A stretch of DNA of 64,000 nucleotides from Patescibacteria group bacterium (GTDB lineage Bacteria > Patescibacteriota > JACPGU01), in NCBI GenBank assembly GCA_041675145.1, contig JBAYUK010000002.1:24530-88529 (forward strand), written 5' to 3'. Under the pieces are notes generated by a model. The model had not been told where the DNA came from. It was given only the letters and a program-made list of their open reading frames with translations, and did no database searches. Below are positions 17,067 to 45,112 of this stretch, piece after piece (positions within the stretch are counted from its first letter, which is position 1; the number at the start of each line of letters is the position of its first letter). Position numbers and translations under genes: made by a program.

Positions 17067-17108
17067 CACATACAACCTATACGAGGGGAAGTATACGAAC
17101 TTAAAAAG

Positions 17109-17130
17109 TCCAGAGTAATCTGGATTTTTT
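17109..17130. terminator. bidirectional terminator
   Basis: tccaga-gtaa-tctgga followed by tttttt, between convergent genes. Confidence 0.6.
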
Positions 17131-17167
17131 AGTGCCACAGTTCTTATTCTCTTCTTGTGCTACCCTC

Positions 17168-18457
17168 TTATAAATAGTAGGGCACCTTGTGTCCATTCGG
17201 ATGCTCAATTTCGTAGAGACGATCCTTTTTAATCCACGCAAAACGGTAGAAGAGCGTGACGCAGACTACAATGCCAGCACAAAGGGCAACAAACCAGTAG
17301 ACTGCCTGCATAGAGAAGTGGTCAGCAAGAGAGCCTAATGCAATTGGGGCAACAAAAAGACCAATACGGCGAACTAAAGTATGGAGAGCCGTTACCGTAC
17401 CAAAGTGTCCTTTGGGAGTAAGCTTGGTAATAATTCCCAAGATACTTGGAGCAGCAACTACTAGTCCTGTAATAGCAAAGAGGGCAGATAGAAATATAGC
17501 GTACTGTTGACTGGCAAAAACCAAGGTCAGACACGATATAAATGTAAGGGCAAATCCAGCCACTATCACAAGTAACCTTACTCCACGGTTAGAAAGCTCT
17601 GCAAAAATAAAGCTAAAGAGCGTTGAGACATGCATCAGCGCCATCAGCAAGCCTATTTGCAGGAGTGATGCGTTTTCCTTCAAGACTACAACAGGAATAA
17701 AGACCGTAATAGCTACCTGAATGAATTTTTCAAGAAACGCGATTCCCATCATCAGCCACATCTCACCATTAAATACTTTCAGATCAGATAAGAAACGTGA
17801 GGTAATGCGCCGTTCCCTGATCCACTGGGAAACGCCCTGGCTAAAACTTTCTGCATGTCGGTTATCAGGGAGTTTAGTATTGAAGATTAAGATCGAGAAA
17901 ATCGGGAAGAACATGAGTGGCAGGAATATAAAGTGGAGAGGATAGCGCTCAACCACAAAGAAAGCAGCAATAAGTAACCCCACCATCCAGGCAATATTGA
18001 CTAAGCTGCCATAGAATCCAAAGAGTTCAGTAGTCTTGTGTTTTTTTGAATAGGCTCCTAGTACCGTTTCTGTCCCAGTCCAGTTAAAAGGGAACGCTAT
18101 TCCATTCAAGACAAGTGCGAAGATTAATATGGGCAACAACTGATACTGCCCTGCTATAAAGTACAAAATTGCAACTATCACTGAGAGAACTTTTCCAATA
18201 GTAAGCATTGTTCGGTACTGCACGAAGTCCATCAGGTAGCCGACTGGGATGGTAAGTAAGGCACTGACAAAAGTAAAAACCGAAACAAGGAGTCCGAGCT
18301 GACTGTAGTTGGTAGTAAAGCTGTTAAGAAAAACAGAAAAGTAGGGGTCAAAGAACCCCGATCCAAATGAGTAGATTGCAATCGAGAGAATCACCCACAG
18401 AGAATGCTTATTAAAGGCTTGGTAGTCTTTTTGTATTTTAGTAAAAAACGGTAACAT
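17168..18457 (-). CDS. MFS transporter
   Basis: 429 aa with about 12 transmembrane helices and a typical MFS loop between TM2 and TM3. Confidence 0.75.
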   Translation of the reverse strand: MLPFFTKIQKDYQAFNKHSLWVILSIAIYSFGSGFFDPYFSVFLNSFTTNYSQLGLLVSVFTFVSALLTIPVGYLMDFVQYRTMLTIGKVLSVIVAILYFIAGQYQLLPILIFALVLNGIAFPFNWTGTETVLGAYSKKHKTTELFGFYGSLVNIAWMVGLLIAAFFVVERYPLHFIFLPLMFFPIFSILIFNTKLPDNRHAESFSQGVSQWIRERRITSRFLSDLKVFNGEMWLMMGIAFLEKFIQVAITVFIPVVVLKENASLLQIGLLMALMHVSTLFSFIFAELSNRGVRLLVIVAGFALTFISCLTLVFASQQYAIFLSALFAITGLVVAAPSILGIITKLTPKGHFGTVTALHTLVRRIGLFVAPIALGSLADHFSMQAVYWFVALCAGIVVCVTLFYRFAWIKKDRLYEIEHPNGHKVPYYL

Positions 18458-18521
18458 GTTTGTTTTTATTCAGATCAAGATTTAGGTATCATACCCAAAC
18501 CACAACCATAAGACAACATCA

Positions 18522-18548
18522 TAAAAGAGGCCGTAAGGCCTCTTTTAT
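18522..18548 (-). terminator. rho-independent terminator
   Basis: agaggcc-gtaa-ggcctct with flanking A and T runs, downstream of the DUF1059 gene. Confidence 0.6.
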
Positions 18549-18564
18549 GTACAGTGTCTCTAAA

Positions 18565-18834
18565 TTACTCAGCCGCTGGAGCTTCTGCTTCAGTAGCTTC
18601 TACCTCAGGAGCAACTTCTGCTTCAGAAGTAGCGTCATCAGCAGTCTCTGCCCAAACCTTTTCAAACATTGTATTCCATTCAGCCATGCTTTCGTCAGTC
18701 GATGCTGCCATCATATCTGCGTGAGCAACCTTTGCGTGCTCAGAGAACATGCTCTTCATTTCCTCAGCTGTTTCTGCTGTGAATTTTGCATCACAACCAA
18801 CTCCACCTACCAATGCACATGCGATAGTCTTCAT
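18565..18834 (-). CDS. DUF1059-like small metal-binding protein with acidic tail
   Basis: 'MKTIACALVGGVGCDAKFTAETAEEM...HAKVAH' follows the DUF1059 pattern. Confidence 0.55.
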   Translation of the reverse strand: MKTIACALVGGVGCDAKFTAETAEEMKSMFSEHAKVAHADMMAASTDESMAEWNTMFEKVWAETADDATSEAEVAPEVEATEAEAPAAE

Positions 18835-18915
18835 ATTCTTCTCTCCTGCTTAACTGTATATTACTGGTTAAGTATACACGAAAGTGAGATTATTACCTAA
18901 TCGTGCTTATTATGC

Positions 18916-19221
18916 TCACTTTATAAGCACTTCTATTGAAAGAGTAATGATATCATTCTCTGATATGTTCTCAGCTTTTCGTACCTGTGCTTTTATAGGT
19001 AACAGGTAAGACCCAGTCTTCTTATCTGGGAAGATTGAAGTGTCCCATGAAGTACTACCAACAGTCACCGTTATGGGAAGTGAGCCCCATCCTTTGGCGT
19101 GCATACCATATATGTCACGGATTTTATCTGCCTCTTTTTTAGGCAGAGTTACGAAGTACCAGGCAGCAGGACCCGGGTAGAGCCACACCTGAGCAGTTAC
19201 CATATAGTTATCTTGTTTCAT
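18916..19221 (-). CDS. DUF1905-domain protein
   Basis: The 'WYFVTLPKKEADKI' motif is typical of DUF1905. Confidence 0.5.
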   Translation of the reverse strand: MKQDNYMVTAQVWLYPGPAAWYFVTLPKKEADKIRDIYGMHAKGWGSLPITVTVGSTSWDTSIFPDKKTGSYLLPIKAQVRKAENISENDIITLSIEVLIK

Positions 19222-19290
19222 GGCATAAGAAGTAAACAGTATTATGCTATACTATACCCAATAGATCAGTATGTAAAAAAGAGGAATACT

Positions 19291-21567
19291 ATGAACAAAA
19301 AACTATCATACATTGCACTCTTTACGCTTGTATCCACCATGTTCTACCCGGGAGTAACCCAAGCAGCTGTTGTAAGAGACTACGATTACCAAATTATTGG
19401 TCAATCCTCATATCCCGCTACCCTTGCTGCTGGCCAGACTACTACCGTGTGGTTAGATATTAAGAATACCGGGAGAAAGACCTGGGACAAGCAGGTGAGA
19501 CTGGGAAGTGGTTCTGCACTTTATGGAAATAAAAACAACGACTATGCCTCAGAGTTTTCAGACAGTAGTTGGCTCTCTCCCAACCGAGCTACCGCAATAG
19601 ATAAAGATAGTGTAAAGCCAGGAGAAACAGCCCGACTGCAGTTTGTGTTGCGCACTCCTAGTTCAAGCGGAACATACAAAGCCTACTTTACTCCAGTTGT
19701 CGATGGTATCTCTTGGATGAAAGATTCAGGGATTTATTGGCAGATCAGTGTAACAGGTGGCACTACCCTTTCTGGTTTTAAAAGAGTCACCTCAGAAGCA
19801 GATTTTAAAAGCTACCTTACTGCAAGCACACAGTCACGAGGGTCGGTCATTGCCCCGACAGCAATACCAACACCATCACCTGCGCCCACTCCTACCACTG
19901 GGTCTACACCTGACAGTGTCACCAGAACTTCTGAAACGAATGTACAAGTACAAGGCATTGACGAACCAGACATGGTGAAGGTTACAGGAGAAAATATTAT
20001 ATACTCTCAAAGAGGCTTCTATTATCCGTACATAACCCGAGGCGGCTTTATACCACAACAACAGACTAGCGGCACCAAGATTATCGATGCAGTACCTGCA
20101 AAAGACATCCAGTTAAAAAACACTATTACTCGAGGTGGGGAACTCCTTCTTGATACCGAGAAGAATATTCTCATGGTATTTGACTACCCCGAGATTATTG
20201 CGTACGACATCACCGACATAAACAACCCAGTACAGAAGTGGAATATTACCCTCAAAGACTCTACCTATATCGATACTGCTCGTTTTACTAACGGTAATCT
20301 GTATGTGGTAACTAAAAGATACATAAATACCAATACCCCGTGCACAATTACACCGCTTGTAGTAAACGGCACAGCTTTCCCTATAAGCTGTACGAACTTC
20401 TACCGACCAATCGCACAAACCTCATCGGATACGGTATATACCGCAATCGTCGTCCAACCAACCACTGGCTCTATATCTAAAAGTACCAGCTTTATAGGTT
20501 CAAGCTCTGACTCACAGGTATATATGTCTGAGAACGCACTATATATCTCCTCATCGTCAGTAGCGCAATACGCAACCTTTTATACCCGTTTTATTTTGGA
20601 TAGAGCACAAGGCTTATTACCAGCAGAGGATATTGCTCACTTGCAAGCGGTACAAGGATACGCGATGAGTGATATAGCCAAGCAGACTGAGTTTGACTAC
20701 ACCATTGAACAATATACCAATAGCCTTACAGACGACGCACAAACTGCCTTTCGCACAGAACTTGCTAACCGTCAAAAAGCCTATGTAGATAGCCAAGTTC
20801 GTCAACTCGAGACAACCAGTATCGCCAAGATTAGCTTGTCAGACTTTTCACTAAGCGCTACTGGTTCAGTACCAGGGTATCTCCTTAACCAGTTCTCGCT
20901 TGATGAGTACCAGGGTAAGCTACGCGTTGCCACTACTATCGGTAATAGATTCTACTGGGGTAGTACTACTGTTAATGATGTATATGTTTTAGGTGAAGCC
21001 ATGAATGAACTGGGTTCAGTCAAAAATCTTGGCACCACTGAAAGAATCTACTCGGCTCGCTTTGTGGGAGATAAGGGGTACCTGGTTACTTTCCGCCAAA
21101 TAGATCCGTTCTATGTACTGGATCTTGCTAACCCTGCTGCACCGAAAGTGAGCGGTGAGCTTAAAATTCCTGGTTACTCGTCGTACCTACATCCTGTAAA
21201 CAACAGCCTAGTGATTGGAGTCGGAAAAGAAAATAACCAAGTAAAAGTATCTCTCTTTGATGTTACTAACCCAGCCACTCCTACTGAAGTAGACAAGTAC
21301 TATCTAAACGAGTACTGGACTGATGTGCAAAACAACCATCATGCATTCTTACTCGATAGCAAACACTCGGTCTTCTTTATCCCAGGCGGTACCGGTGGGT
21401 ATGTAATATCTTATGAAGGAAACAAACTAACACTCAAAAAAGCAGTAAGTGGAACTGGCATTAAGCGAGCAGTATATATCAACGATACCATGTACATCCT
21501 CTCAGATACCAAAGTCACTGCAATCAATGAAACAACATGGGAAAATGAAGGGGAGCTCGGACTGTAA
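19291..21567 (+). CDS. secreted beta-propeller-domain protein (PF09826/COG4880 type) with N-terminal ~110-aa repeat module
   Basis: A GAGGAA ribosome-binding site, then a signal peptide. The 'SETNVQVQGIDEPDMVKVTGENIIYS' and 'FVGDKGYLVTFRQIDPFYVLDLANPAAPKVSGELKIPGYSSYLHP' motifs mark the family. I moved the start from the ORF-track 19099 to Met 19291. Confidence 0.7.
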   Translation: MNKKLSYIALFTLVSTMFYPGVTQAAVVRDYDYQIIGQSSYPATLAAGQTTTVWLDIKNTGRKTWDKQVRLGSGSALYGNKNNDYASEFSDSSWLSPNRATAIDKDSVKPGETARLQFVLRTPSSSGTYKAYFTPVVDGISWMKDSGIYWQISVTGGTTLSGFKRVTSEADFKSYLTASTQSRGSVIAPTAIPTPSPAPTPTTGSTPDSVTRTSETNVQVQGIDEPDMVKVTGENIIYSQRGFYYPYITRGGFIPQQQTSGTKIIDAVPAKDIQLKNTITRGGELLLDTEKNILMVFDYPEIIAYDITDINNPVQKWNITLKDSTYIDTARFTNGNLYVVTKRYINTNTPCTITPLVVNGTAFPISCTNFYRPIAQTSSDTVYTAIVVQPTTGSISKSTSFIGSSSDSQVYMSENALYISSSSVAQYATFYTRFILDRAQGLLPAEDIAHLQAVQGYAMSDIAKQTEFDYTIEQYTNSLTDDAQTAFRTELANRQKAYVDSQVRQLETTSIAKISLSDFSLSATGSVPGYLLNQFSLDEYQGKLRVATTIGNRFYWGSTTVNDVYVLGEAMNELGSVKNLGTTERIYSARFVGDKGYLVTFRQIDPFYVLDLANPAAPKVSGELKIPGYSSYLHPVNNSLVIGVGKENNQVKVSLFDVTNPATPTEVDKYYLNEYWTDVQNNHHAFLLDSKHSVFFIPGGTGGYVISYEGNKLTLKKAVSGTGIKRAVYINDTMYILSDTKVTAINETTWENEGELGL

Positions 21568-21584
21568 AGTTACAAGTTACGGTA

Positions 21585-21625
21585 AAAAAAGACCGCCACT
21601 CCCGTATGGGGTGGCGGTTTACGTT
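21585..21625. terminator. bidirectional terminator
   Basis: accgccac-tcccgtatgggg-gtggcggt followed by a T-rich tail. Confidence 0.6.
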
Positions 21626-21638
21626 TCATATCAAAAGC

Positions 21639-22406
21639 CTAGGAGGGATACGGATTGTTTCTCAAGATCTCAAGAGTCTCTTCATGCACGACTCCATTGG
21701 TGACCAAAATGGTCTCTGACTTAAGACCCCACTCCTGCCCGGAAGCTGTGGTGACTTTCCCGCCTGCTTCAGCAACAATGCAGGCTCCGGCCACCACATC
21801 AATTGGGTTGCTTACCAGCAAGTAGATTTCCGCACTACCCATTGCGATCTGCGCTAACTCATACGCACTAGCGGACAGGATCTGCACTTGGCCGGTTGCG
21901 CTCACCAGCGGAAGACTGGTGTGAAACTCTCCCTTCCAAGAGCCACCTCCGTAGTAGAGGGCCTTGTTTAAAGGAAGGTTGGAGACGCGGATCGGGCGAC
22001 CGTTTGCATATGCGCCTTCTCCTTCCTCAGCCCAGACTGTTAGGTCAAGCTCGGGGAAGTGGAGGACACCTGCTACCGCCTTGTTGTTACGCATCAGGCC
22101 GATGGAGACACCGTAGAACGGAAAGCCTCGAATAAAGCTAGCCGTTCCATCCAGCGGATCCACATACCACACTTCTTCGCTATCGAGGCGAAAGCTGGTT
22201 CCTTCCTCGCTAAAGATTCCATGATAAGGGATGCTCTTATTTATCCCGTTAACAATGAACGCTTCTGAAGCAAAGTCCGCACTGGTGACAACACTGCCAA
22301 CATCATACAGAGTTGCTTTGGAACTCTCCTTAAAGCTCCCGCGATAGGAGAGTAGGATTTCCCCTGCCCCTTTGGCAACGGGAATGATCTTTTCAATGTA
22401 CTTCAT
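21639..22406 (-). CDS. suhB: inositol monophosphatase family protein (SuhB-like)
   Basis: 'WYVDPLDGTASF' and the 'EE...DP...DGT' metal-binding motifs. Confidence 0.8.
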   Translation of the reverse strand: MKYIEKIIPVAKGAGEILLSYRGSFKESSKATLYDVGSVVTSADFASEAFIVNGINKSIPYHGIFSEEGTSFRLDSEEVWYVDPLDGTASFIRGFPFYGVSIGLMRNNKAVAGVLHFPELDLTVWAEEGEGAYANGRPIRVSNLPLNKALYYGGGSWKGEFHTSLPLVSATGQVQILSASAYELAQIAMGSAEIYLLVSNPIDVVAGACIVAEAGGKVTTASGQEWGLKSETILVTNGVVHEETLEILRNNPYPS

Positions 22407-22589
22407 GGCATTTACCTATTACTGCAACCTGCTCGCCTCTATATGCAGTAACCTTTCTTTCTATATTTTAATGAGCGTTTGTATATCATATCACCTTTAA
22501 GCCTAAAAGTACAATAAAAGAGCTACAGTAAGCTCTTTTATTGCATAACGACTGTCTTAAGAAAAGTTTCAAATGACGAATAACACATA

Positions 22590-22632
22590 AAAGAAAGCCC
22601 CTTTCGGGGCCTGCCTCCTCAGGAGGACTTGA
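22590..22632 (-). terminator. tandem-hairpin terminator
   Basis: gcccctttcggggc and cctcctcaggagg hairpins. The reverse complement is followed by a T-rich tail. Confidence 0.5.
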
Positions 22633-22636
22633 AAAG

Positions 22637-22963
22637 TTATTTACCAGCTGATCCAGACGATGCAGCGTTGAAGTGGTAGATAGCAGCTTTGCTTCCAAGT
22701 TGTTTTTTTTGCACATTAGGGTTTGCGCAAATAGCAAGTGCTGTTTTCTTCTCAGGGAACTGTGCAATTCTGTATGATTCGGCAGGGGTTATCTGGTTTT
22801 GATGCCAAACCAGCATCACCATATCAGCGCTACCGTCGTAGGTGTCATCTGGCCCAAGGCTTAAAACCTCTTCAAAACCATGTGTTTTGGTGTCTTTTTT
22901 TGAACTTTTTAACGCTGTTTTTGCTGCGTTAGCCAGCACTGTCCTTTTTCTCCGACCAGCCAT
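22637..22963 (-). CDS. hypothetical small basic protein
   Basis: 108 aa starting at the Met preceded by a GAGAGGAGAGG ribosome-binding site. The ORF track extends it to 23179, which I rejected because that would overlap dinD. Confidence 0.45.
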   Translation of the reverse strand: MAGRRKRTVLANAAKTALKSSKKDTKTHGFEEVLSLGPDDTYDGSADMVMLVWHQNQITPAESYRIAQFPEKKTALAICANPNVQKKQLGSKAAIYHFNAASSGSAGK

Positions 22964-23070
22964 AAGCCTCTCCTCTCTGTAATGTTTTCTTAGGGTCGAT
23001 GTAAAAAGTGTATAATACTTTTGTACATTAGTCAATAGAAAAGACTTAAATAAGCCTTTTCTTATCATGC

Positions 23071-23097
23071 AATGGCCTTCATGAGAGGAGTTTCGAA
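23071..23097 (+). repeat. direct repeat copy A (aatggccttcatgagaggagtttcgaa)
   Basis: 25 of 27 nt are identical to copy B at 24041-24070, with a 3-nt indel. The two copies bracket dinD. Confidence 0.7.
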
Positions 23098-23162
23098 TGG
23101 CAGTCGAGACGTCGTCGTTGGGGTGACAGCCCATCCAGCCAGATGCTATAATAAGCTCAACT

Positions 23163-24005
23163 ATGGACAAAGCCCTCACACAAATACAACAAAATCTTGA
23201 ATCTATTAAGAAAACGTCAAATGACGCCGAGCGGATGGAATTTTGGTCTGCTCGAGACCTGATGCCTATACTAGGATATTCAACATGGCGTCAGTTTTCT
23301 GAAGCTATTGATCGTGCTAAGGAGTCTTGTAAAACAAGTGGTCAACCTGTGGAGGGGCACTTTTTGCCGGCGCCGGCAAAAAGATCCGGTGGTCGTCCAG
23401 GAGAGGACTTCTTATTAACGCGCTATGCATGTTACCTCATCGCTCAAAATGGCGACCCGCGTAAACCCCAAATAGCCCTGGCTCAAACCTATTTTGCTAC
23501 CCAGACCCGTAAACAAGAATTACTTGAGCAACGCGAGGAAGAAAACAATCGGCTCGAAGCCCGGGCAAAGCTCAAGGAAACCGAGAAGAATATCGCCTCC
23601 ACCGTCTACCAGCGAGGCATCAAGCTCCAGGTTGAGTTTGCCACATTCAAAAATAAACACATCGAAGCACTCTACGGTGGCATTCCTGCAAATCAGCTCA
23701 AAAAAATGCGCGATATCCCAGCCAAGCGATCACTGGCCGACTTTGACTCGCAAGTAGAGTTGAAAGCCAAAGACTTCGCACTCGCTATGACGGATCACAA
23801 TATTAAGCAGAAGAATATTAAAGGCAAAGATGCCATGAACGCCGAAGTGGTGAAAAACAGCAAAGAGACCCGCCAAGCACTCCTTAATCGTGGCATTAGA
23901 CCCGAGCTCATCAAGCCAGAAGAAGATCTAAAGCGAGTTGAGGCACGCCGCAAGAGCGAAGAAAGAAAGCTCAGCAATCAAAACAAAAAGTTACTAGAAG
24001 GCTAA
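23163..24005 (+). CDS. dinD: DNA damage-inducible protein D
   Basis: 'EFWSARDLMPILGYSTWRQF', 'LTRYACYLIAQNGDPRKP' and 'AQTYFATQTRKQEL' match E. coli DinD block by block. Confidence 0.85.
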   Translation: MDKALTQIQQNLESIKKTSNDAERMEFWSARDLMPILGYSTWRQFSEAIDRAKESCKTSGQPVEGHFLPAPAKRSGGRPGEDFLLTRYACYLIAQNGDPRKPQIALAQTYFATQTRKQELLEQREEENNRLEARAKLKETEKNIASTVYQRGIKLQVEFATFKNKHIEALYGGIPANQLKKMRDIPAKRSLADFDSQVELKAKDFALAMTDHNIKQKNIKGKDAMNAEVVKNSKETRQALLNRGIRPELIKPEEDLKRVEARRKSEERKLSNQNKKLLEG

Positions 24006-24006
24006 A

Positions 24007-24034
24007 AGAGACGGACCGTGGTTCCGTCTTTTTT
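24007..24034 (+). terminator. rho-independent terminator of dinD
   Basis: agacgga-ccgtggt-tccgtct followed by tttttt. Confidence 0.65.
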
Positions 24035-24040
24035 ATCTGT

Positions 24041-24070
24041 AATGGTGGCCTTCGTGGGAGGAGTTTCGAA
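24041..24070 (+). repeat. direct repeat copy B
   Basis: aatggtggccttcgtgggaggagtttcgaa. See copy A. Confidence 0.7.
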
Positions 24071-24097
24071 AGATAACGGTTCGCCCAGACGAGCCCT

Positions 24098-24499
24098 TTA
24101 CTCAAACTGAATACTGAAATTATACATCCCCATAGCACAAAGGCCTCGTATCGTTGTCCCGGCTGGTTGGGCCGGCACTGCTACCGACGTTTCTCCTGAT
24201 GCAGGCAGATTCTTGGTGTAACCCAGACTAGGGATAGTGAGGGCAGACGAACAGTCAAAGGTACCTTGGGTGGCCACCCTGATCGTTGTGGGCATGCCTG
24301 CCTTTGCCCTGGTCACCTGCGGCCAGTAGCCACCCTTGGCGTTGATAGTAATGATCTGCTCGCCATTAACTACGCTCGTATTACTGATGGCAGGCGATAT
24401 ACTGGTATGATCCCGGCGACCAGCCGACCATAGCACTACCCCACCAACCAAAACGAGGGCGATTACTATTGAAACAGTAGTCAAATATATTGGTTTCAT
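24098..24499 (-). CDS. cupredoxin-like domain protein (membrane-anchored)
   Basis: An N-terminal transmembrane helix, then a beta-rich domain with 'C...C..GMY'. This architecture is typical next to copA. Confidence 0.5.
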   Translation of the reverse strand: MKPIYLTTVSIVIALVLVGGVVLWSAGRRDHTSISPAISNTSVVNGEQIITINAKGGYWPQVTRAKAGMPTTIRVATQGTFDCSSALTIPSLGYTKNLPASGETSVAVPAQPAGTTIRGLCAMGMYNFSIQFE

Positions 24500-24515
24500 C
24501 AGATGGTCGTTACTG

Positions 24516-25535
24516 CTAAAAGCTAAAGAAAGGTGGGATAGTCCCTGCAGCCACTAAAACATTTATTACATTAAAGATTCCAAAGAAGATCACGACCAGC
24601 CCCGCTGTCTTGAAAAACACGCCTGACTGCGCCTTGGTGTGGACGCTAAGTGAACTGAAAGAAAGGAGAGCGAGGACCGGCAGAGTACCGAGCGCAAACG
24701 CCCCCATGATTATTGCTCCAGTCGCGAAACTACCCGTTGTTAGCACGTAGATCTGCATGGACTGCGTAAAGCCACAGGGTAAGAAAAAGGTTGCAATACC
24801 AACGAGGGTGGGAGTTAGGGTGTGGTTTAGATTTTTGAGTCCGTGCACATGCTTCCCAACAAAAGCTGGTAGTGTTGGCTGGAATCTCTTGGCCCACGGG
24901 AATATACCTAGAAGGTTTACACCGAGAACAAGAAGCACAAGTGCAACGAAAATACCCAAGGAGGCTACGATAGTCGGCCCAAGCTGGAATGCTGAACCCA
25001 GCGCGCCAATCGCACCCCCGAGGATAAGAAACGATGCAAGCCGGCCGATATGAAATAATACCTGCGGTCGTATCTTGTCGCCCTCTTTGGCAAAGTTAGC
25101 CGAGAGCGAGAGCACGAGGCCACCGACCACGGCCATACAGGTCGAAACTGAGGCGATCAGGCCAATCACAAAAGCCGTACCGGGCCCGACCTGCGCGGTG
25201 GTGACCAAATTCACTAGGCCCAGCTTTTGCAGAAGAATAAAAACGCCGATAAAACCAATTGCGAGCGGAACAGCCAGCCGAAAGTCCGACCAACGCACCG
25301 CATTCTTCTGCGACTTAAGAGAGAGCGTATAGCCATGCGGTCGCAAGACTTCGCTCAGGTCACGCGCAATCTGCTCAGGAGCTTGGTCGCCAAAATCACC
25401 ACGGACCACAACACGGTGATTCGCGAGCGATGCCTTCGCCGTTGTTATTGCCGGCACACCCATAAGCCCACTCTCGATGAGCGCCACGCAGGAGCGACAA
25501 TGCATACCATGGATGTGAAATGTATACGTCTTCAT
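24516..25535 (-). CDS. HMA-domain fused to DsbD/CcdA- or TauE-like permease
   Basis: N-terminal 'HIHGMHCRSCV' is an HMA metal-binding domain. It is followed by 6-8 transmembrane helices with 'STCMAV' and 'LPCGF' motifs. Confidence 0.6.
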   Translation of the reverse strand: MKTYTFHIHGMHCRSCVALIESGLMGVPAITTAKASLANHRVVVRGDFGDQAPEQIARDLSEVLRPHGYTLSLKSQKNAVRWSDFRLAVPLAIGFIGVFILLQKLGLVNLVTTAQVGPGTAFVIGLIASVSTCMAVVGGLVLSLSANFAKEGDKIRPQVLFHIGRLASFLILGGAIGALGSAFQLGPTIVASLGIFVALVLLVLGVNLLGIFPWAKRFQPTLPAFVGKHVHGLKNLNHTLTPTLVGIATFFLPCGFTQSMQIYVLTTGSFATGAIIMGAFALGTLPVLALLSFSSLSVHTKAQSGVFFKTAGLVVIFFGIFNVINVLVAAGTIPPFFSF

Positions 25536-25539
25536 ATAA

Positions 25540-27855
25540 TTAAAGCTCTTTTACTTTTAGTCGCAGCGAGTTGCCCACGACCGAAACACTGGATAAGGCC
25601 ATCGCTAACCCGGCAAAAACCGGATTGAGCAGCCAGCCGAAGATAGGGTAGAACAAGCCAGCCGCGAGCGGGATTCCCACAATATTATAGAAAAATGCCC
25701 AAAATAAATTTTGCTTAATCCCGCGCATCGTCATTTTCGAAAGTCGAATAGCCTTCACAAGCTTCGTGATGTCCCCGTGAAGCAGAGTAATGCCAGCGGT
25801 TTCGATAGCTACGTCCGTGCCAGTCGCCATTGCGATCCCAACGTCCGCCTGCGCCAGAGCCGGTGCGTCATTGACCCCATCACCAGCCATCACCACGCGC
25901 GTGCCTTTGGCCTGCAACTCTTTAATTAACTTCAATTTATCCTCCGGCAAAACTTGGGCAAACACTTTTGTTATCCCTGCCTGATCCGCAATAAAACGAG
26001 CGGTGTTTTGATCGTCTCCGGTCATCATAATGACGGTCAGTCCCATTTGCTTTAGCCTTTCAACTGACTCCTTTGCTTCCGGCTTGATTTTATCGGCCAC
26101 CATTGCGACCCCCAAAACTTCTTTTTTAGTGGCAAGAATCACTGGAGTTTTACCCTGTTTGGTTTCTAGCTCGATCATTTTCTCGTCGATTTTTAACCCC
26201 AATTCTTTGATCAACCGGACATTGCCCACCCAATATTGAGTTTTCTCGATCACGCCTGTTGCCCCTCGGCCTTTGAGCATCTCATATTTAGCAACCGGCA
26301 GCGGATTAATCTTTTTTTCTTTCGCGTACCGCATCGTTGCCTGAGCCACCGGATGATCAGAATGACTGTCCAGCGATGCGATGAGAGCAATCAAAGCTTT
26401 TTCAGATAATTCAGATAATGAACTAATCGAAACCAATTCCGGTTTTCCTTGAGTAATAGTGCCGGTTTTATCCACCACCACAGCATTCACCCGATAGAGC
26501 TTTTCCAGTGTCGCCGCGTCTTTGATCAAAATCCCTTCCTGGGCTCCGCGTCCCACTCCAACAATAATCGCAGTCGGCGTGGCCAGCCCCAGAGCACACG
26601 GACAAGCGATAATAAGAATACCAACAAAAGAAGTCAGACCATATGAAAATGCCTGGGCAAGCCCGAGAGACCCGGTGCCGACAACCAGCCATAGTAAAAG
26701 AGTGCCCAAAGACAAAACGATCACGATCGGCACAAAAACCGCCGATATTGTATCTGCCAAGGCCTGAATCGGCGCTCGGCTGCCCTGAGCCTCCTCAACC
26801 ATTTTGATAATCTGTGCCAAAAAAGTGTCGGACCCAACCTTTGTCGCAGTAAAAGTAAAGCTCCCCGTCGTATTGATTGTACCCGCTACAACACTATCCC
26901 CAACATTTTTTTCAACTGGCATTGGCTCACCACTCACCATCGCTTCGTCCACAAAAGAGTTGCCTTTACTTACTACTCCGTCCACTGGAATACGAGACCC
27001 TGGTTTAACCACAATAATATCGCCTTTTACTACCTGCTGAATTGGTATTTCAATCTCTTTGTTGCCGCGAAACACTAAAGCTGTTTTTGCCTGTAAGTTG
27101 AGAAGTCTTTCAATAGCGTCACCAGTTTTTAGTTTTGAACTCGCTTCTAGATATTTTCCGAGAGTAATAAAAGCTACCACCACGATCGTAATATCATAAT
27201 AAGTACTATCAACATCCAAATAAGGACGTAGGGTATCCTCAAAAGCTGAGACAGCAAAACTATACAAATAGGCCGCCAGCGTTCCCATACCAATCAAGGT
27301 ATCCATATTAGCTTTGCCGTATCTTAAAAATCTATAGAAGCCAAGCAGGTACGGCTTACCAACTACAAACAGAGTATAGGTGGCAAATATCGGCAATAGA
27401 TGATGAAAAAAATCTTTTATAAAAATACTCATCCCAGCGACCAGCTGTAATTGAGCAAGAATATCCCAACCCATAACAAAAATACTAAAAACCGCCAGTG
27501 GCATTACTGAGATGACTTTAAGCTTCATTTCATTTAGCTCAATTGTTTTTTCCTGTTTAGTTTGGTTTAGACCCAAATGGGCAGCGTGTTCACTAGCTGT
27601 CATGCCCATTGCGCTAGCACTAGACCCAGCCAAGTTTTTCTCTACTGGAAGCTGAAAGGTATAACCCAAAGGCTCAATTGACTTTGAGAGTTGGTGTGGG
27701 CTGTTCTTATTTTCATCAAACACAACCTTTGCTTTTTCGGTACCATAGTTCACCTCTGCCGCGGTTACACCAGCTTGTTTTTTTAGAACACTCTCAATGG
27801 TCCGAGCACATGATGCACAGTGCATACCACGGATTGGATAAGTGTGTTTAGTCAT
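25540..27855 (-). CDS. copA: copper-translocating P1B-type ATPase
   Basis: HMA domain '[12 protein letters not shown]', CPC motif '[11 protein letters not shown]', 'DKTGTIT', 'MTGDDQNTA' and '[10 protein letters not shown]'. The start is set at MTKHT and overlaps the csoR stop by TAAcATG. Confidence 0.9.
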
Positions 27856-27856
27856 G

Positions 27857-28132
27857 TTATTTTCTTTTGAGCTTATAAACTTTAAGGATTTCTGTTTTGG
27901 CCTTTTCGATTCTACCTGCCTTGAGCTGATCAACGATACAACCACTGAGGTGATTTTCCAGCAACAAATCCTCAACATTGGAAAGTCCCTGCTTCACAGC
28001 CGAGGTCTGTGTAATGACATCGATACAGTATGCATCTTGTACTATCATATCTTGTAGCCCTCGCACCTGCCCCTCAATGATCTTGAGGCGCCGCACTAAT
28101 TTTTTCTTATTTTCCGATTTGATATATTTCAT
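27857..28132 (-). CDS. csoR: CsoR/RcnR-family metal-sensing repressor
   Basis: '[36 protein letters not shown]' is the CsoR signature with Cys/His ligands. Confidence 0.85.
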
Positions 28133-28143
28133 ACATCTAAAAT

Positions 28144-28161
28144 ATACCCCCTAGGGGGTAT
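28144..28161. promoter_or_regulatory. CsoR operator (18-bp perfect palindrome ATACCCCCTAGGGGGTAT)
   Basis: A perfect GC-rich palindrome of the CsoR operator type (TACCC...GGGTA), 12 bp upstream of the csoR start. Confidence 0.7.
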
Positions 28162-28199
28162 GTGTCAATCCAGATCTATGCTTTCAAGTAATAAAAAAT

Positions 28200-28450
28200 T
28201 GGTACCTACTTCCCGGTGGGGATCCTCCTCGCTCCGACTCGGAGCCGGGGCACTCCACACAACTGACGCTGCGCCAGCTCGCGTCAACTCCGTGCCCTTC
28301 GATCCCCACGAAAAAGCCCTTCTTCGCACAAGGCTCCGAAGGGCATTCTTCGCTTTTATATAGAAATGGCTACGCCATTCGTAGCTCCGTAAGGAGCGAA
28401 GAATGGAGCTTGTGGGGATCGAACTTTTGGTCTGCGTGGATGCTGTTTTT
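28200..28450 (+). ncRNA. GC-rich structured element of unknown class (candidate ncRNA / tRNA-att scar)
   Basis: About 60% GC in an AT-rich genome. Contains nested helices, including 9-bp gtggggatc/gatccccac, a GNRA hairpin ctccGTAAggag, and gcccttc/gaagggc. No credible ORF. Two 13-nt matches to the tRNA-Lys 3' end. Ends at a terminator. Confidence 0.35.
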
Positions 28451-28462
28451 AGAGATAACAAA

Positions 28463-28490
28463 AATAGTGGCTAATTAAAGCCACTATTTT
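28463..28490. terminator. bidirectional terminator
   Basis: aatagtggc-taattaaa-gccactatt, flanked by A and T runs on both strands. Confidence 0.65.
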
Positions 28491-28495
28491 CAACA

Positions 28496-28568
28496 TGGAC
28501 CCGGTGGGGATCGAACCCACGACCCACGGCTTAAAAGGCCGCTGCTCTACCAACTGAGCTACAGGTCC
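28496..28568 (-). tRNA. tRNA-Lys (anticodon UUU)
   Basis: Manual cloverleaf: 7-bp acceptor stem, D-arm GCTC/GAGC, anticodon stem GCGGC/GCCGT with loop CTTTTAA, and T-arm GTGGG-TTCGATC-CCCAC. CCA is not encoded. Length is 73 nt. Confidence 0.85.
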
Positions 28569-40879: not shown

Positions 40880-41302
40880 ATGAAAAAACTTCTTATATCC
40901 TTCCTACTTACCTCAACCCTCTTTGTGGGTAATTTTGCGTATGTCTCCCCGGTATTCGCAGTAGACCCAGCACCTACTGCACCAGCTCCGATACCAGCTC
41001 CTACCGACGGTTCGAAGCCAGAGAACTTGCAAGCAACCTCTTTTGCCCAAACAAGTGATCCTCAGGCACCAAAATTTGGAGAATTTATTCAGGTCTTTTA
41101 CAGATACCTTTCAATAATTACGCTCATAGCAGCCCTTCTCTCAGGCATCATTGGCTCATATATGTATATGACTAGCTCAGGCAACCCCGAAAAGATTGGA
41201 AAGGCACGGGAAATAATAGTGAATTCAATTATTGCTATAATCGTAGTAGCCTTTGCGTATGCATTTTTCAATATTCTTTCTCCTAATATAATAGGAAAAT
41301 GA
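40880..41302 (+). CDS. TrbC/VirB2-like pilin paralog 1
   Basis: Signal peptide followed by two transmembrane helices around 'MTSSGNPEKIGKAREIIVNSIIAIIVV'. Confidence 0.6.
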   Translation: MKKLLISFLLTSTLFVGNFAYVSPVFAVDPAPTAPAPIPAPTDGSKPENLQATSFAQTSDPQAPKFGEFIQVFYRYLSIITLIAALLSGIIGSYMYMTSSGNPEKIGKAREIIVNSIIAIIVVAFAYAFFNILSPNIIGK

Positions 41303-41862
41303 AAAAGAATTTTCTAAAAGTTTTTTTTATTTCTGCACTCTTCGCTATTTCCACAGTTACTGTGTTCTCTCTTCCTATGCATGTATATGCGGCTAATGAT
41401 GTGTATGAATACGTGGGACCTACTAAAATCTCTTGTAGTAGTACAGATCCATTTAGTGTTTTTAAGGAGCTTACTGGTGGAGCCACTCCTATTACCGAAG
41501 TGGATAAAGCCCTTAACGGCATTGCCTGTCTTGGGCTTAGTTTGGTTAACTTCTTGTCCGAAATGGCAGTACTGGTCGCTGCGATATATATCACGATATC
41601 TGGGATTAAGTACCAGACATCATCTGGAGACCCAAAGAAACAGCAGGCAGCAATTTCTGCCTTACAAGCAGCCCTTATAGGGTTTGCTCTCTCGTTGTCT
41701 TTTGTTGCTATCATCAACTACGCCCTAAACTTTATTGAGTTCGATACCTTAACAGGACAGTTTAAGAGTGTGAATGTGGAAGCCACAAAACCTGCCGATA
41801 CGCCTGCGCCAGCAGCACCGGGTACGCCTGATACACCAGCACCGCAACCAACCAGAAGCTAG
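41299..41862 (+). CDS. TrbC/VirB2-like pilin paralog 2 (P/A-rich tail)
   Basis: Same architecture as paralog 1, with 'KYQTSSGDPKKQQAAISALQAALIGFAL'. It overlaps paralog 1 by ATGA. Confidence 0.6.
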   Translation: MKKNFLKVFFISALFAISTVTVFSLPMHVYAANDVYEYVGPTKISCSSTDPFSVFKELTGGATPITEVDKALNGIACLGLSLVNFLSEMAVLVAAIYITISGIKYQTSSGDPKKQQAAISALQAALIGFALSLSFVAIINYALNFIEFDTLTGQFKSVNVEATKPADTPAPAAPGTPDTPAPQPTRS

Positions 41863-42060
41863 CTAGTATGTGTACGGTTCAGGTTTATTGCATTTATCCC
41901 CAGGTTTTGCCTTGCTATCCACAGAAATTTGGCTATAATGCACATAAGTGTGGATTTTGTCACCTTAATAAATTCGTTCATTCGTTTGTGTATCGCAATT
42001 TTTTTGAAAAATATAAATAATACAAAGAGGCTCACGTCTCGTAAATCCTCAGGAGGAATC

Positions 42061-42426
42061 ATGCTTAAAAATATAAAAAATCATTTAGCTGTTGTTGGTT
42101 CACTAGCAACTTTGACTGTTGGTAATGTGGCAGCAGCCGCAACAACAGAGATCGAGACTGGCCTTACTAAGACCGGAAACCTCGAGACTATTATTCAAAG
42201 TGTTATGAATACATTTATGGCTATAGTAGGCTTAGCTACAATTGTATACCTTATATACGGCGGATTTATGTACCTAACTTCAGGTGGAAACGCAGAGAAA
42301 GTCACTACAGCCAAGAACACCATTATTTATGCTATTGTTGGTATCATCATTATTGGTGCCGCATACGCAATTCGCGGATTTGTACTTGACCGCCTAAGTA
42401 TCACTATACCTACAGGGGGAATCTAA
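42061..42426 (+). CDS. TrbC/VirB2-like pilin paralog 3
   Basis: An AGGAGG ribosome-binding site. Contains 'MYLTSGGNAEKVTTAKNTIIYAIVGIIIIGAAYA'. I set the start at Met 42061 rather than the ORF-track 41929. Confidence 0.6.
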   Translation: MLKNIKNHLAVVGSLATLTVGNVAAAATTEIETGLTKTGNLETIIQSVMNTFMAIVGLATIVYLIYGGFMYLTSGGNAEKVTTAKNTIIYAIVGIIIIGAAYAIRGFVLDRLSITIPTGGI

Positions 42427-44011: not shown

Positions 44012-44818
44012 TTACTCTCCTTCTTTTGTATCTTTTGCAGGCGGAAGCTCTTCTACCACAATCTCTTCTTGATGCTCACCTTTATGTTTAATACGAACCG
44101 TAACTTCGCGTGCTTTTTCGTGGTTTACGTAGAACTGCTGAGCAATACTAAAGAGCGTTGTGGTAACGAGGTAGAAACCAAGACCAGCTGGGAATGAGCG
44201 TGCAATGAAGTACGTCATTACGGGAACAATTAAGCTCATTTGCTTGTTCATCATCTGTTCCATAGTAGGTTTACTACCCGCTACTTGTGGTTGCGCCTGT
44301 GCATTTACTGTCATAATAGTTAGGCCATACTGGGTAAGGCCTGCCAGTACTGGGATAACGATAAGCTCTGGCTTTGCCAAGTCAAGCAACCCAAAGAACT
44401 GGGTATTAAGCTGGGCTGGCGCATGAATAAAAGAGTACACATGCGCTGGGTTAATAGCCTTAAGTCCTTCTCCGAGTGTACGATAAAGAGCGATAAAAAC
44501 TGGGAGCTGGATGAGTATCGGTAAGCAGCTCGACCATGGGTTTACCTGGTACTGTTTGTAAAAGGCGACTTGTGCTTTGGCAAGCTCTTGAGGGTCTCCT
44601 TTGTATTGGTCCTTGAGCTTATTAAGCTCCGGCATGATCTTTTTCATCTTGCGCTGTGAACGAGCAGCTTTGAGCCCTAATGGCAAAATGAGTAACCGGA
44701 TAATAACCGTCATAATCACAATAGCTATTCCAAGGTCATGACCTGGAATAGTGTTATACAGAAACAAAAGAAAGTTGAGCAACGGGTTGTAGAGCAAATC
44801 TTGCCAAATGGAAAACAT
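44012..44818 (-). CDS. yidC: membrane protein insertase YidC (short form)
   Basis: 'YKQYQVNPWSSCLPILIQLPVFIALY' is the YidC/Oxa1 core. Confidence 0.9.
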   Translation of the reverse strand: MFSIWQDLLYNPLLNFLLFLYNTIPGHDLGIAIVIMTVIIRLLILPLGLKAARSQRKMKKIMPELNKLKDQYKGDPQELAKAQVAFYKQYQVNPWSSCLPILIQLPVFIALYRTLGEGLKAINPAHVYSFIHAPAQLNTQFFGLLDLAKPELIVIPVLAGLTQYGLTIMTVNAQAQPQVAGSKPTMEQMMNKQMSLIVPVMTYFIARSFPAGLGFYLVTTTLFSIAQQFYVNHEKAREVTVRIKHKGEHQEEIVVEELPPAKDTKEGE

Positions 44819-44827
44819 AGGATTGTA

Positions 44828-45112
44828 TTATATATGTTTGTGAGGCACCTCGTCTATGCCACCTTTTGTCCATGGGTTACAACGCAGTATACGCCATAGG
44901 GTGAGTAGCGACCCGTACAGTACCCCGTGTTTGTGTATGGCCTGTTTTCCATATTCAGAACAGGTTGGAACGTAGGGACAGTACCCATGAGGGAACAGGA
45001 ACTTGAGCGGTCCGTGGTCTGGAGAAAGCGTCTTCTGGTACAACGATATAACTCCCGTAAGTACTATTCGAGGGATCCTACTTATACCCAACAGAGCTTG
45101 TTTTGGTGTCAT
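44828..45112 (-). CDS. yidD: membrane protein insertion efficiency factor YidD
   Basis: 'ISLYQKTLSPDHG...CPYVPTCSEYGKQAI' is the YidD motif. Confidence 0.85.
   Translation of the reverse strand: MTPKQALLGISRIPRIVLTGVISLYQKTLSPDHGPLKFLFPHGYCPYVPTCSEYGKQAIHKHGVLYGSLLTLWRILRCNPWTKGGIDEVPHKHI

What the first reader, a model, noticed from the sequence alone, without database searches (positions are those of the whole stretch)
28200..28568. GC-rich ~250-nt structured element next to tRNA-Lys containing two 13-nt copies of the tRNA 3' end
The segment is about 60% GC against a background near 40%. It has no plausible ORF but multiple nested helices: a 9-bp gtggggatc...gatccccac pair, a GUAA GNRA hairpin, and gcccttc/gaagggc. 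It is bracketed by a promoter-like region and a bidirectional terminator. On the tRNA strand it contains 'gttcgatccccac' at 28408-28421 and 'gatccccaccggg' at 28211-28225. These exactly match the T-loop and 3' acceptor region of the adjacent tRNA-Lys(UUU). This is the signature of att-site duplications left by integration or excision at a tRNA gene, or of an unknown structured RNA. I could not fit it to tmRNA, RNase P RNA, SRP RNA or a group I/II intron.
Basis: seen in the sequence. Interest (0 to 1): 0.6.

Follow-up and report, generated by a model that had tools for sequence, protein, structure and literature searches.

The report
Integration-site scars beside tRNA-Lys gene
The GC-rich "structured" stretch next to the tRNA-Lys gene is most likely leftover attachment-site DNA (tRNA-end fragments plus the repeat-rich flanking arm) of integrase-type mobile elements that inserted at this tRNA, not a new RNA gene, so it is a fairly ordinary feature of a genomic-island hot spot.

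Summary
A 57-66% GC, ORF-less, palindrome-rich segment (about 28200-28440) lies downstream of tRNA-Lys(UUU) in a 43% GC Patescibacteria (CPR) genome and carries short copies of the tRNA T-loop/T-stem region. Three details change the picture. There are three copies, not two, and one is inverted (28298-28309, + strand). The copy at 28424->28403 continues as an alanine-type acceptor strand (AAGCUCCA), so it is not a tRNA-Lys duplicate. The helices are Watson-Crick on both strands. Rfam finds only the tRNA, and no promoter-like site faces the segment. In syntenic relatives the tRNA-Lys sits about 200 nt from a conserved membrane-protein gene. Here about 11.4 kb of accessory DNA (copper-resistance cluster, phage Bro-N gene) is inserted at the tRNA 3' end. 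Two relatives lack the element. One has a 140-nt mini-insert bounded by a perfect 20-nt repeat of its own tRNA end. The hairpin module 28314-28406 has one clear homolog: the end of a viral contig, where it abuts a partial tRNA-Ser 3' end next to a tyrosine integrase gene, a classic attP layout. Best reading (about 0.62): att-core scars plus att-arm DNA of decayed integrative elements. An RNA gene is not excluded but is unsupported. Interest is low to moderate.

The parts
28496..28568 (-). tRNA-Lys(UUU) gene; CCA is not encoded
   Evidence: ARAGORN; Rfam tRNA at 74.3 bits
28459..28492 (-). tRNA-Lys intrinsic terminator hairpin (14-bp stem plus T run), readable in both directions
   Evidence: Terminator scan; inverted repeat I5
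28425..28458 (-). 34-nt spacer between the terminator and copy A. It is possibly the remnant of an earlier element's arm. It shows a weak 12-nt similarity (GATGCTGTTTTT) to the int-side flank of the L036 core.
   Evidence: 32 of 3000 shuffles reach the score; marginal
28403..28424 (-). Copy A: GTTCGATCCCCAC (T-loop plus 3' T-stem, shared with tRNA-Lys), then AAGCTCC+A+T. This is an alanine-type acceptor 3' strand and is read as the att core of an Ala/ssrA-type element.
   Evidence: Repeat D2; 20-nt exact match to tRNA-Ala(GGC) 3' ends in L031 and L032
28314..28406 (.). Hairpin/repeat module homologous to the att-flanking arm of an integrase-bearing viral contig (L036 1-100). It contains the 11-bp inverted repeat CATTCTTCGCT/AGCGAAGAATG (28344-28354 / 28395-28405), the 7-bp inverted repeat 28316-28322 / 28338-28344, and palindromes at 28369-28385 and 28384-28397. 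The 8-mer TTCTTCGC occurs at 28320 and 28346 (+) and at 28396-28403 (-).
28298..28309 (+). Inverted copy of the tRNA T region (TTCGATCCCCAC). It forms the 12-14-bp 'helix' with copy A and the 9-bp 'helix' with copy B.
28225..28297 (.). The GC-richest spacer (about 66% GC), with palindromes GCTCCG-ACT-CGGAGC (28231-28245) and TGACGC...GCGTCA (28264-28286). No homolog was found.
28212..28224 (-). Copy B: GATCCCCACCGGG. It is a Lys-type core, an exact 13-nt copy of the tRNA-Lys T-loop/T-stem plus the first 4 acceptor nucleotides, after which it diverges.
   Evidence: Repeat D1
28141..28168 (-). CsoR/copper-operon promoter (TTGACA-16-TATATT) with the operator palindrome ATACCCCCTAGGGGGTAT (28144-28161). 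It marks the boundary of the element and is not part of it.
   Evidence: (I8)
17067..28211 (.). Accessory block absent from syntenic relatives: MFS transporter, beta-propeller protein, IMPase, a hypothetical protein, phage-type Bro-N protein, cupredoxin, DsbD/HMA, CopA and CsoR. It lies between the conserved 191-aa membrane-protein gene and the tRNA-Lys 3' flank.
   Evidence: and synteny

Best explanation
The segment is non-coding junction DNA at an integration hot spot at the 3' end of tRNA-Lys(UUU). It is a mosaic of attachment-site cores and the DNA that flanks such cores in integrase-type mobile elements.

The cores are short tRNA 3'-end fragments that begin in the T-loop. One is Lys-type (copy B), one is Ala-type (copy A) and one is inverted.

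Proposed mechanism:
1. Tyrosine integrases of tRNA-targeting phages and islands recombine an element-borne copy of a tRNA 3' end (the attP core) with the tRNA gene.
2. This rebuilds the tRNA and leaves a displaced partial copy on the far side of the insert.
3. Repeated integration at the same or a displaced core, followed by internal deletion, leaves stacked cores separated by arm DNA.

On this reading the apparent RNA helices are inverted repeats and palindromes of that arm DNA. They include a TTCTTCGC 8-mer present twice direct and once inverted, which is a candidate protein-binding site. They also include pairing between the inverted and direct core copies.

Shown:
- The cores and their types.
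- The insertion of about 11.4 kb of accessory DNA at this tRNA relative to relatives.
- Homology of the 28314-28406 module to a sequence that abuts a partial tRNA-Ser end and a tyrosine integrase gene in a viral contig.

Inferred:
- The order of integration events. A Lys-type element would have come first, then an Ala-type element entered the displaced core through the shared 13-nt T region, and deletions followed.
- That the 8-mers are integrase arm-type sites.
- That the module is element DNA rather than host flank.
For: 1. Synteny. Relatives have DnaK-DnaJ-[~173-aa membrane protein]-tRNA-Lys-MBL/beta-CASP-peptidase S8. The window has the same flanks: a 191-aa protein 53% identical to the L012 173-aa protein, and DnaK/DnaJ. 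In the window, however, 11.4 kb lies between the membrane-protein gene and the tRNA 3' end.
2. The element is not conserved. In L014 and L016 the tRNA-Lys is followed only by a terminator.
3. In L012 a 140-nt insert is bounded by an exact 20-nt direct repeat of that genome's own tRNA-Lys 3' end. It has the same inverted-T-region / spacer / direct-core layout.
4. Window 28314-28406 is homologous to L036 1-100. BLAST gave E = 8e-8. The positions not imposed by the search pattern are also significant: 0 of 2000 shuffles for the interior and 8 of 2000 for the upstream part.
5. In both sequences the module is followed at the same point by the complement of a tRNA 3' end.
6. In L036 the next ORF is a tyrosine integrase: PF00589 at 2e-10 plus a SAM-like domain. 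ARAGORN finds no full tRNA there. The L036 fragment matches tRNA-Ser ends that also sit in temperate Salmonella phages.
7. Copy A equals tRNA-Ala 3' ends, as expected for a foreign att core rather than a local duplication.
8. The cargo looks mobile. The Bro-N protein hits phrog_8036 at 4e-76. In a relative, the copper cluster lies beside Prim-Pol and HTH_17 genes.
9. There is no Rfam hit and no promoter-like site facing the segment. The main helices are perfect on both strands.
Against: - No integrase ORF or remnant is present in the 64-kb window.
- No tRNA-end repeat marks the far end of the 11.4-kb block near 17.1 kb, and the block lies outside the repeat-bounded segment.
- Only one homolog of the module was found, and it sits at the very end of a contig. 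Whether the module is element arm or host flank cannot be settled.
- The int-side flank of the L036 core has no inverted core copy.
- The GC-richest part (28225-28297) has no homolog.
- Very negative fold z-scores are also what a structured RNA or a single-stranded-DNA site would show. So is a paired insertion that preserves one palindrome: GCTCC-GTAA-GGAGC in the window against GCTTCC-GATAC-GGAAGC in L036.
- The proposed order of events is a reconstruction, not an observation.
Confidence: 0.62

Rival explanations
1. It is a still-functional, non-autonomous mini-element (CIME- or MITE-like cassette). It would be bounded by tRNA-end cores and excised or integrated in trans by a tRNA-specific recombinase encoded elsewhere. 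The inverted core and palindromes would be its recombination sites.
For: L012 carries a 140-nt insert with a perfect 20-nt direct repeat, which implies a recent event, and it has the same inverted-core / spacer / direct-core layout as window 28309->28212. The element is present in some close relatives and absent in others.
Against: There are no further copies in the 64-kb window. A metagenome-wide scan for the layout found only the L012 contig plus unrelated hits. The interior sequences of the window and L012 are barely similar. In the window the two bounding cores are of different tRNA types, and one is truncated.
Confidence: 0.13
2. It is an independent structured non-coding RNA gene on either strand. 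Its basal helices use a T-arm-like sequence, and it might pair with or mimic tRNA-Lys.
For: Fold z-scores are -4.6 and -5.3. There is a GNRA loop on the plus strand. A paired insertion preserves one hairpin between the window and L036. In L012 the 9-bp basal helix keeps pairing with one G-U on the tRNA-sense strand.
Against: There is no Rfam match even at E<10. No sigma-70-like promoter is present on either strand, although the neighbouring tRNA and CsoR promoters match the consensus well. A strong terminator sits upstream on the minus strand. The helices are strand-symmetric. The element is absent from syntenic relatives. The tRNA-like parts track each genome's own tRNA, as att repeats do.
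Confidence: 0.1
3. The 28314-28406 module is host DNA: a conserved structured trailer that follows tRNA genes. Copy A plus the module would then be the remnant of a tRNA-Ala gene once clustered with tRNA-Lys and later destroyed by integration and deletion.
For: In both the window and L036 the module starts immediately after the tRNA 3' end. L036 could be the attR end of a provirus with 100 nt of host flank.
Against: It would require the same trailer behind two different tRNAs (Ser-type and Ala-type) in two different hosts. None of the tRNA-Lys genes in relatives has such a trailer. The module has no T-run terminator.
Confidence: 0.08
4. It is a permuted (two-piece) tmRNA or permuted tRNA-like gene. 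This is prompted by the alanine-type T-loop/acceptor end followed 15 nt later by GGAGCUA.
For: Copy A has the AAGCUCC+A end typical of tRNA-Ala and tmRNA. The order of 3' strand, short loop and possible 5' strand resembles permuted tmRNA genes.
Against: ARAGORN finds no tmRNA. Rfam tmRNA_permuted scores 10.2 bits against a gathering score of 47, and that alignment uses the tRNA-Lys itself. The 5' T-stem strand is missing next to the loop. The only candidate partner gives A3-U70 rather than G3-U70 plus an A-A mismatch. No tag reading frame was seen on reading the minus strand (inspection, not a tool result).
Confidence: 0.02

Closest known systems
attL/attR scars and attP arms of tRNA-targeting tyrosine-integrase elements (P4-like islands; temperate phages such as ST64B or mycobacteriophage L5)
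   Same: The direct repeats of a tRNA 3' end begin in the T-loop. Accessory DNA is inserted exactly at the tRNA 3' end. The homologous module lies next to a partial tRNA end and an integrase gene in a viral contig. Short motifs are repeated in both orientations in the flanking arm.
   Different: No integrase is left in the window. The far boundary repeat is missing. Cores of two different tRNA types are stacked. There is an extra inverted core copy 56-102 nt from a direct core. The arm DNA is unusually GC-rich and palindromic.
CIMEs (cis-mobilizable elements: att-bounded remnants of integrative elements that lack recombination genes)
   Same: Short DNA bounded by att-type repeats, with no integrase and a location at a tRNA gene. 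The L012 140-nt insert with its perfect 20-nt repeat fits best.
   Different: Known CIMEs are kilobases long. Mobility here is untested. The bounding cores in the window are not identical.
Two-piece (permuted) tmRNA genes
   Same: An alanine-type T-loop/acceptor 3' end is followed by a short loop and a partly complementary strand, in GC-rich structured DNA beside a tRNA.
   Different: There is no intact T-arm, no G3:U70, no tag ORF, and no ARAGORN or Rfam support.
REP/BIME-type or MITE-type clusters of GC-rich intergenic palindromes
   Same: Several perfect GC-rich palindromes sit in an intergenic region just after a terminator in an AT-richer genome.
   Different: There is a single cluster in 64 kb with no repeated family, and the palindromes are interleaved with tRNA-end fragments.

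Membership tests
att site / junction of a tRNA-targeting tyrosine-integrase element | Partial direct repeat(s) of the tRNA 3' end, starting in or near the T-loop, downstream of the intact tRNA gene | tested here: met
   Copy B is 13 of 13 identical. Copy A shares the 13-nt T region. 3 matches against 0.22 expected. L012 has a 20-nt exact repeat.
att site / junction of a tRNA-targeting tyrosine-integrase element | Lineage-specific accessory DNA at the tRNA 3' end that is absent from syntenic relatives | tested here: met
   An 11.4-kb block lies between the conserved membrane-protein gene and the tRNA, against about 200 nt in L012, L014 and L016.
att site / junction of a tRNA-targeting tyrosine-integrase element | Integrase gene adjacent to the att site | tested here: not met
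   No PF00589 or other recombinase was found among window ORFs of 120 aa or more. tblastn with the L036 integrase gave nothing. The feature is met only in the homolog L036.
att site / junction of a tRNA-targeting tyrosine-integrase element | Matching repeat at the distal boundary of the inserted block | tested here: not met
   GATCCCCACCGGGTCCA with up to 3 mismatches occurs only at the tRNA and at copy A. Nothing was found near 17.1 kb.
att site / junction of a tRNA-targeting tyrosine-integrase element | Arm-type repeated binding motifs flanking the core | tested here: inconclusive
   TTCTTCGC occurs 3 times within 85 nt, out of 6 in the whole window, and similar 8-mers recur in L036. Protein binding was not tested.
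Any Rfam RNA family (tmRNA, RNase P, SRP, 6S, riboswitches, introns) | Covariance-model score at or above the gathering threshold | tested here: not met
   Only the tRNA reaches threshold. Nothing in the element reaches E<10 apart from a 10-bit tmRNA_permuted artefact.
Two-piece/permuted tmRNA | Intact T-arm, acceptor stem with G3:U70, and a tag reading frame | tested here: not met
   The 5' T-stem strand is absent beside the loop. The only partner strand, GGAGCUA, gives A3-U70 (sequence). ARAGORN is negative.
Stand-alone structured ncRNA gene | Own promoter and terminator, conservation in relatives, and strand-specific covariation | tested here: not met
   No promoter-like site is present. 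The element is absent in L014 and L016. The helices are strand-symmetric. Only one homolog exists, so covariation cannot be tested beyond one paired insertion.
Stand-alone structured ncRNA gene | Detectable transcript | not testable with these tools
   No RNA-seq data are available.
Dispersed palindromic repeat family (REP/MITE) | Multiple copies in the genome | tested here: not met
   Short-word BLAST of the element against the window finds only the tRNA-derived matches. Only 64 kb of the genome could be searched.

The most novel reading that the evidence does not exclude
The hairpin module and the inverted-core/direct-core unit could be a functional structured nucleic acid that travels with tRNA-end att cores in phages and islands of CPR-type bacteria. 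It could be a folded single-stranded-DNA recombination site, or a small RNA made from the att arm that pairs with the tRNA T-arm. Either would define a new class of very small (140-300 nt), integrase-less cassettes that insert at tRNA T-loops.
Probability: 0.12. Interest if true: 0.55.

Novelty: new member of a known kind. Interest (0 to 1): 0.25.

Why it matters
The finding mainly matters as a caution. A strongly folding, GC-rich, ORF-less island beside a tRNA can be recombination-site debris rather than an RNA gene. It also marks tRNA-Lys(UUU) as an integration hot spot in this Patescibacteria clade, with a copper-resistance island here, a 140-nt att-bounded mini-insert in one relative, and a GIY-YIG insertion in another. 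It gives a first glimpse of an att arm shared between a CPR genome and an uncultured virus. If the mini-cassettes proved mobile or transcribed, they would be an unusually small kind of tRNA-targeting element.

Tried and rejected
- **Rfam.** Searches at the gathering score and at E<10 on the window, L012 and L036 found nothing but tRNA.
- **tmRNA or permuted tRNA.** Rejected: ARAGORN is negative, there is no intact T-arm, no G3:U70 and no tag.
- **Protein-coding remnant.** The three ORFs over the element have no Pfam hit.
- **Repeat family.** No other copy exists in the window.
- **Synteny through genome contigs.** This returned only distant relatives (45-47% identity) with no tRNA nearby.
- **Metagenome scan for the inverted-core/spacer/direct-core layout.** It found only the L012 contig plus five unrelated sequences.
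- **Viral scans with the Lys-type tRNA end.** These found only phage tRNA arrays or nothing.
- **Viral scan with the looser layout pattern.** It returned four contigs. Two hold ordinary tRNA genes at the match. The match sequences themselves were not read, and BLAST of the element against them gave only weak short hits.
- **Bro-N protein in viral contigs.** No relatives were found.
- **GenBank phages and PLSDB plasmids with the element.** No meaningful hit.
- **16-mer GAAGGGCATTCTTCGC in viral contigs.** 12 of the 13 hits are coincidences in coding sequence.
- **CAST, IS110-bridge-RNA, TnpB/IscB omega-RNA and retron ideas.** Dropped because no matching protein gene was found among the window ORFs of 120 aa or more.
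- **Inverton idea** (12-bp inverted repeats flanking 102 nt). Dropped because there is no promoter inside and no recombinase nearby.
- **Similarity of the interiors of the L012 and window elements.** Marginal, and mixed in orientation.
- **Last contig look-ups.** P0012 returned no DNA, and P0244 led to a differently arranged locus with tRNA-His.

Full report
**What is there.** The window comes from a Patescibacteria (CPR) genome. Its MBL/beta-CASP protein is named 'Patescibacteria group bacterium' by NCBI and is 45-47% identical to those of Giovannonibacteria and Tagabacteria MAGs. The only tRNA is tRNA-Lys(UUU) at 28568->28496 on the minus strand. It has a good promoter match at 28611->28583 and a 14-bp terminator hairpin at 28492->28459. 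Its GC content is 0.57 over 28200-28440, peaking at 0.66, against 0.434 for the window. On its far side are the csoR promoter and its operator palindrome (28168->28141; 28144-28161), followed by csoR, copA, a DsbD/HMA gene and a cupredoxin gene, all on the minus strand. Two independent assemblies from other samples carry the identical sequence, so it is not an assembly artefact.

**Check of the observation.**
- The helices and repeats exist. The tRNA-derived 12-mer TTCGATCCCCAC occurs three times against 0.22 expected.
- There is a third, inverted copy on the plus strand at 28298-28309. It is the partner of both long 'helices': 12-14 bp with the copy at 28412-28423 and 9 bp with the copy at 28216-28224.
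- The upstream copy extends to 22 nt (28424->28403), but its acceptor part is AAGCTCC+A. The 20-mer TTCGATCCCCACAAGCTCCA is an exact match to the 3' end of tRNA-Ala(GGC) genes (5' end GGGGCUU, G3:U70) in two phage tRNA arrays. This copy is therefore an alanine-type tRNA or tmRNA end that shares only the 13-nt T region with tRNA-Lys.
- The downstream copy (28224->28212) is Lys-type but diverges after four acceptor nucleotides.
- All the main helices are perfect Watson-Crick on both strands, and G-U pairs occur only in marginal helices. The two strands fold about equally well, at -103 and -105 kcal/mol with z-scores of -4.6 and -5.3.

**Is it a known RNA or a gene?** Rfam finds only the tRNA at gathering scores and nothing credible at E<10. 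ARAGORN finds no tmRNA. The ORFs across the region have no Pfam match. No sigma-70-like promoter faces the segment on either strand, although the neighbouring tRNA and csoR promoters match the consensus well. The element has no other copy in the 64 kb and no meaningful hit in GenBank phages or PLSDB plasmids.

**Comparative context.** Relatives at about 57-61% MBL identity share the order DnaK-DnaJ-[~173-aa membrane protein]-tRNA-Lys(UUU)-MBL-peptidase S8. The window has the same flanks:
- HrcA, GrpE, DnaK and DnaJ.
- A 191-aa membrane protein 53% identical to the L012 173-aa protein.
- A peptidase S8 48% identical to the L012 one.

In the window, however, 11.4 kb separates the membrane-protein gene (ending at 17066) from the tRNA 3' end. 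This block holds an MFS transporter, a beta-propeller protein, IMPase, a hypothetical protein, a phage-type Bro-N protein (phrog_8036, 4e-76), and the copper cluster. In other CPR genomes the same copper cluster, with CopA about 70% identical, sits beside Prim-Pol/PriCT/AAA_25 and HTH_17 genes or beside a tRNA-Arg. The tRNA-Lys 3' end is therefore an insertion point, and the flagged segment is the tRNA-proximal edge of the inserted DNA.

The element itself is not conserved. In L014 and L016 the tRNA-Lys is followed only by a terminator. In L012 there is a 140-nt insert bounded by an exact 20-nt direct repeat of that genome's own tRNA 3' end. That insert has the same layout as window 28309->28212: an inverted T-region copy, a 56-nt (73-nt in the window) spacer, then a direct core. 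The tRNA-like parts follow each genome's own tRNA (T-loop UUCGAUC here, UUCGAAU in L012), as att repeats do. The interiors are barely similar. A metagenome-wide scan for this layout returned only the L012 contig and unrelated sequences.

**The key homolog.** A viral-contig scan for the 11-bp inverted repeat of the module found IMGVR_UViG_3300042391_002233.
- Its first 100 nt align with window 28314-28406 at about 78% identity. Conserved blocks include GAAGGGCATTCTTCGCTT and GCCATTCGTAGCT...GCGAAGAATGG.
- The similarity is significant at positions the search pattern did not impose: 0 of 2000 shuffles for the interior and 8 of 2000 for the upstream part.
- In both sequences the module is followed, at the same point, by the complement of a tRNA 3' end. 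In the window this is the Ala-type copy A. In the viral contig it is a Ser-type end with a full T-arm and CCA but no complete tRNA.
- About 90 nt further on, the viral contig encodes a tyrosine integrase (Phage_integrase at 2e-10 plus a SAM-like domain).
- An integrase gene next to a partial tRNA 3' end is the standard attP layout of tRNA-integrating temperate phages (established knowledge). The same Ser-type fragment matches temperate Salmonella phages such as ST64B.
- TTCTTCGC-type 8-mers occur twice direct and once inverted in both sequences. This would suit arm-type protein-binding sites and would generate the 11-bp 'helix'.
- One palindrome differs by a paired insertion: GCTCC-GTAA-GGAGC in the window against GCTTCC-GATAC-GGAAGC in the viral contig. 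The dyad symmetry is therefore under some constraint, either as a dimeric protein site or as a hairpin.

**Most likely explanation (about 0.62).** The segment is att-site debris. It consists of stacked cores (tRNA-end fragments) plus arm DNA of tyrosine-integrase elements that used the tRNA-Lys T region. One reconstruction fits the order of the parts:
1. A Lys-type element integrated and supplied the present tRNA 3' end and terminator.
2. An Ala-type element related to the viral contig then integrated into the displaced Lys core through the shared 13-nt T region. This gave copy A (Ala-type acceptor) followed by its arm module on one side, and copy B (Lys-type acceptor) on the other.
3. Internal deletions removed the integrases and most of the cargo.

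This sequence of events is inferred. What is shown is the core types, the insertion relative to relatives, and the homology to an integrase-linked att region.

Evidence against this reading:
- No integrase ORF or remnant is present in the window.
- No distal repeat marks the far end of the block near 17.1 kb.
- There is only a single homolog, and it sits at a contig end, so the module could be host flank rather than element arm.
- The GC-richest 73 nt has no homolog.

**Rivals.**
- A still-mobile, integrase-less mini-cassette (0.13). This is favoured by the perfect repeat in L012.
- A stand-alone structured RNA (0.10). It is favoured only by fold statistics and the one paired insertion.
- A conserved tRNA trailer belonging to a destroyed tRNA-Ala gene (0.08).
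- A permuted tmRNA or tRNA (0.02). It fails the T-arm, G3:U70, tag and model tests.

**Novelty and verdict.** tRNA-end att repeats beside genomic islands are textbook, so this is a new member of a known kind, found in an under-studied phylum. The unusual features are the mixed Lys/Ala cores, the inverted core copy, and the very small att-bounded insert in a relative. Interest is low to moderate at 0.25. The residual novel reading is a functional folded DNA or RNA cassette that travels with tRNA-end cores; it has a probability of about 0.12.

Noticed in passing
L030:1-400: In another relative (MBL 57% identical), the stretch between the tRNA-Lys promoter region and the tRNA-Lys 5' half holds a 62-aa ORF (216->28) with a faint GIY-YIG match whose stop codon lies inside the tRNA 5' end. 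It also holds a second copy of the tRNA 5' part (385->301), interrupted by a 16-nt GC-rich inverted repeat (CCGACACTTCGGTCGG / CCGACCGGAGTGTCGG). The same tRNA is therefore hit from its 5' side in that lineage. The contig ends inside the tRNA.
   Followed up: partly
window 17067-28211: This ~11.4-kb accessory block is absent from syntenic relatives. It holds an MFS transporter, a beta-propeller protein, IMPase, a phage-type Bro-N protein (phrog_8036) and a csoR-copA-DsbD/HMA-cupredoxin copper cluster. CopA is about 70% identical across many CPR lineages, whereas the neighbouring housekeeping MBL protein is at most 71% identical in one relative and about 60% or less in all others. This suggests the cluster moves horizontally within CPR.
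   Followed up: partly
window 28144-28161: A perfect 18-bp palindrome, ATACCCCCTAGGGGGTAT, overlaps the csoR promoter (TTGACA-16-TATATT). It is a textbook-looking CsoR operator.
   Followed up: no
L025:1-5700: In a relative's contig the same copper cluster lies directly beside Prim-Pol/PriCT_1/AAA_25, DUF5659, HTH_17 (excisionase-like) and a 1012-aa SMC_N-like gene. This looks like an integrative or mobilisable element carrying copper resistance in CPR.
   Followed up: no
window 44012-48662: The window contains the yidC, rnpA, dnaA and dnaN genes, so it probably spans the replication origin region, about 17 kb from the tRNA-Lys hot spot. The presence of RnpA implies an RNase P RNA elsewhere in the genome.
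   Followed up: no
window 40880-42426: Three consecutive small paralogous ORFs (140, 187 and 165 aa) each match the T4SS_pilin/TrbC family.
   Followed up: no
window 52054-60003: A giant 2649-aa ORF on the minus strand has no Pfam match at E<=0.001. It is followed by a 623-aa SLT-domain protein.
   Followed up: no
L028, L029, L031, L032 (IMG/VR contigs): These phage contigs carry dense tRNA arrays of 8-14 tRNAs, including suppressor-type (tRNA-Stop UUA; 'Pyl' CUA) and duplicated Lys, Ala, Asn and Met genes. Their Lys and Ala T-arm/acceptor ends are identical to those in the window.
   Followed up: no
window 4214-4648: A PemK/MazF-type toxin gene overlaps the end of the galactose-1-phosphate uridylyltransferase-like gene.
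   Followed up: no
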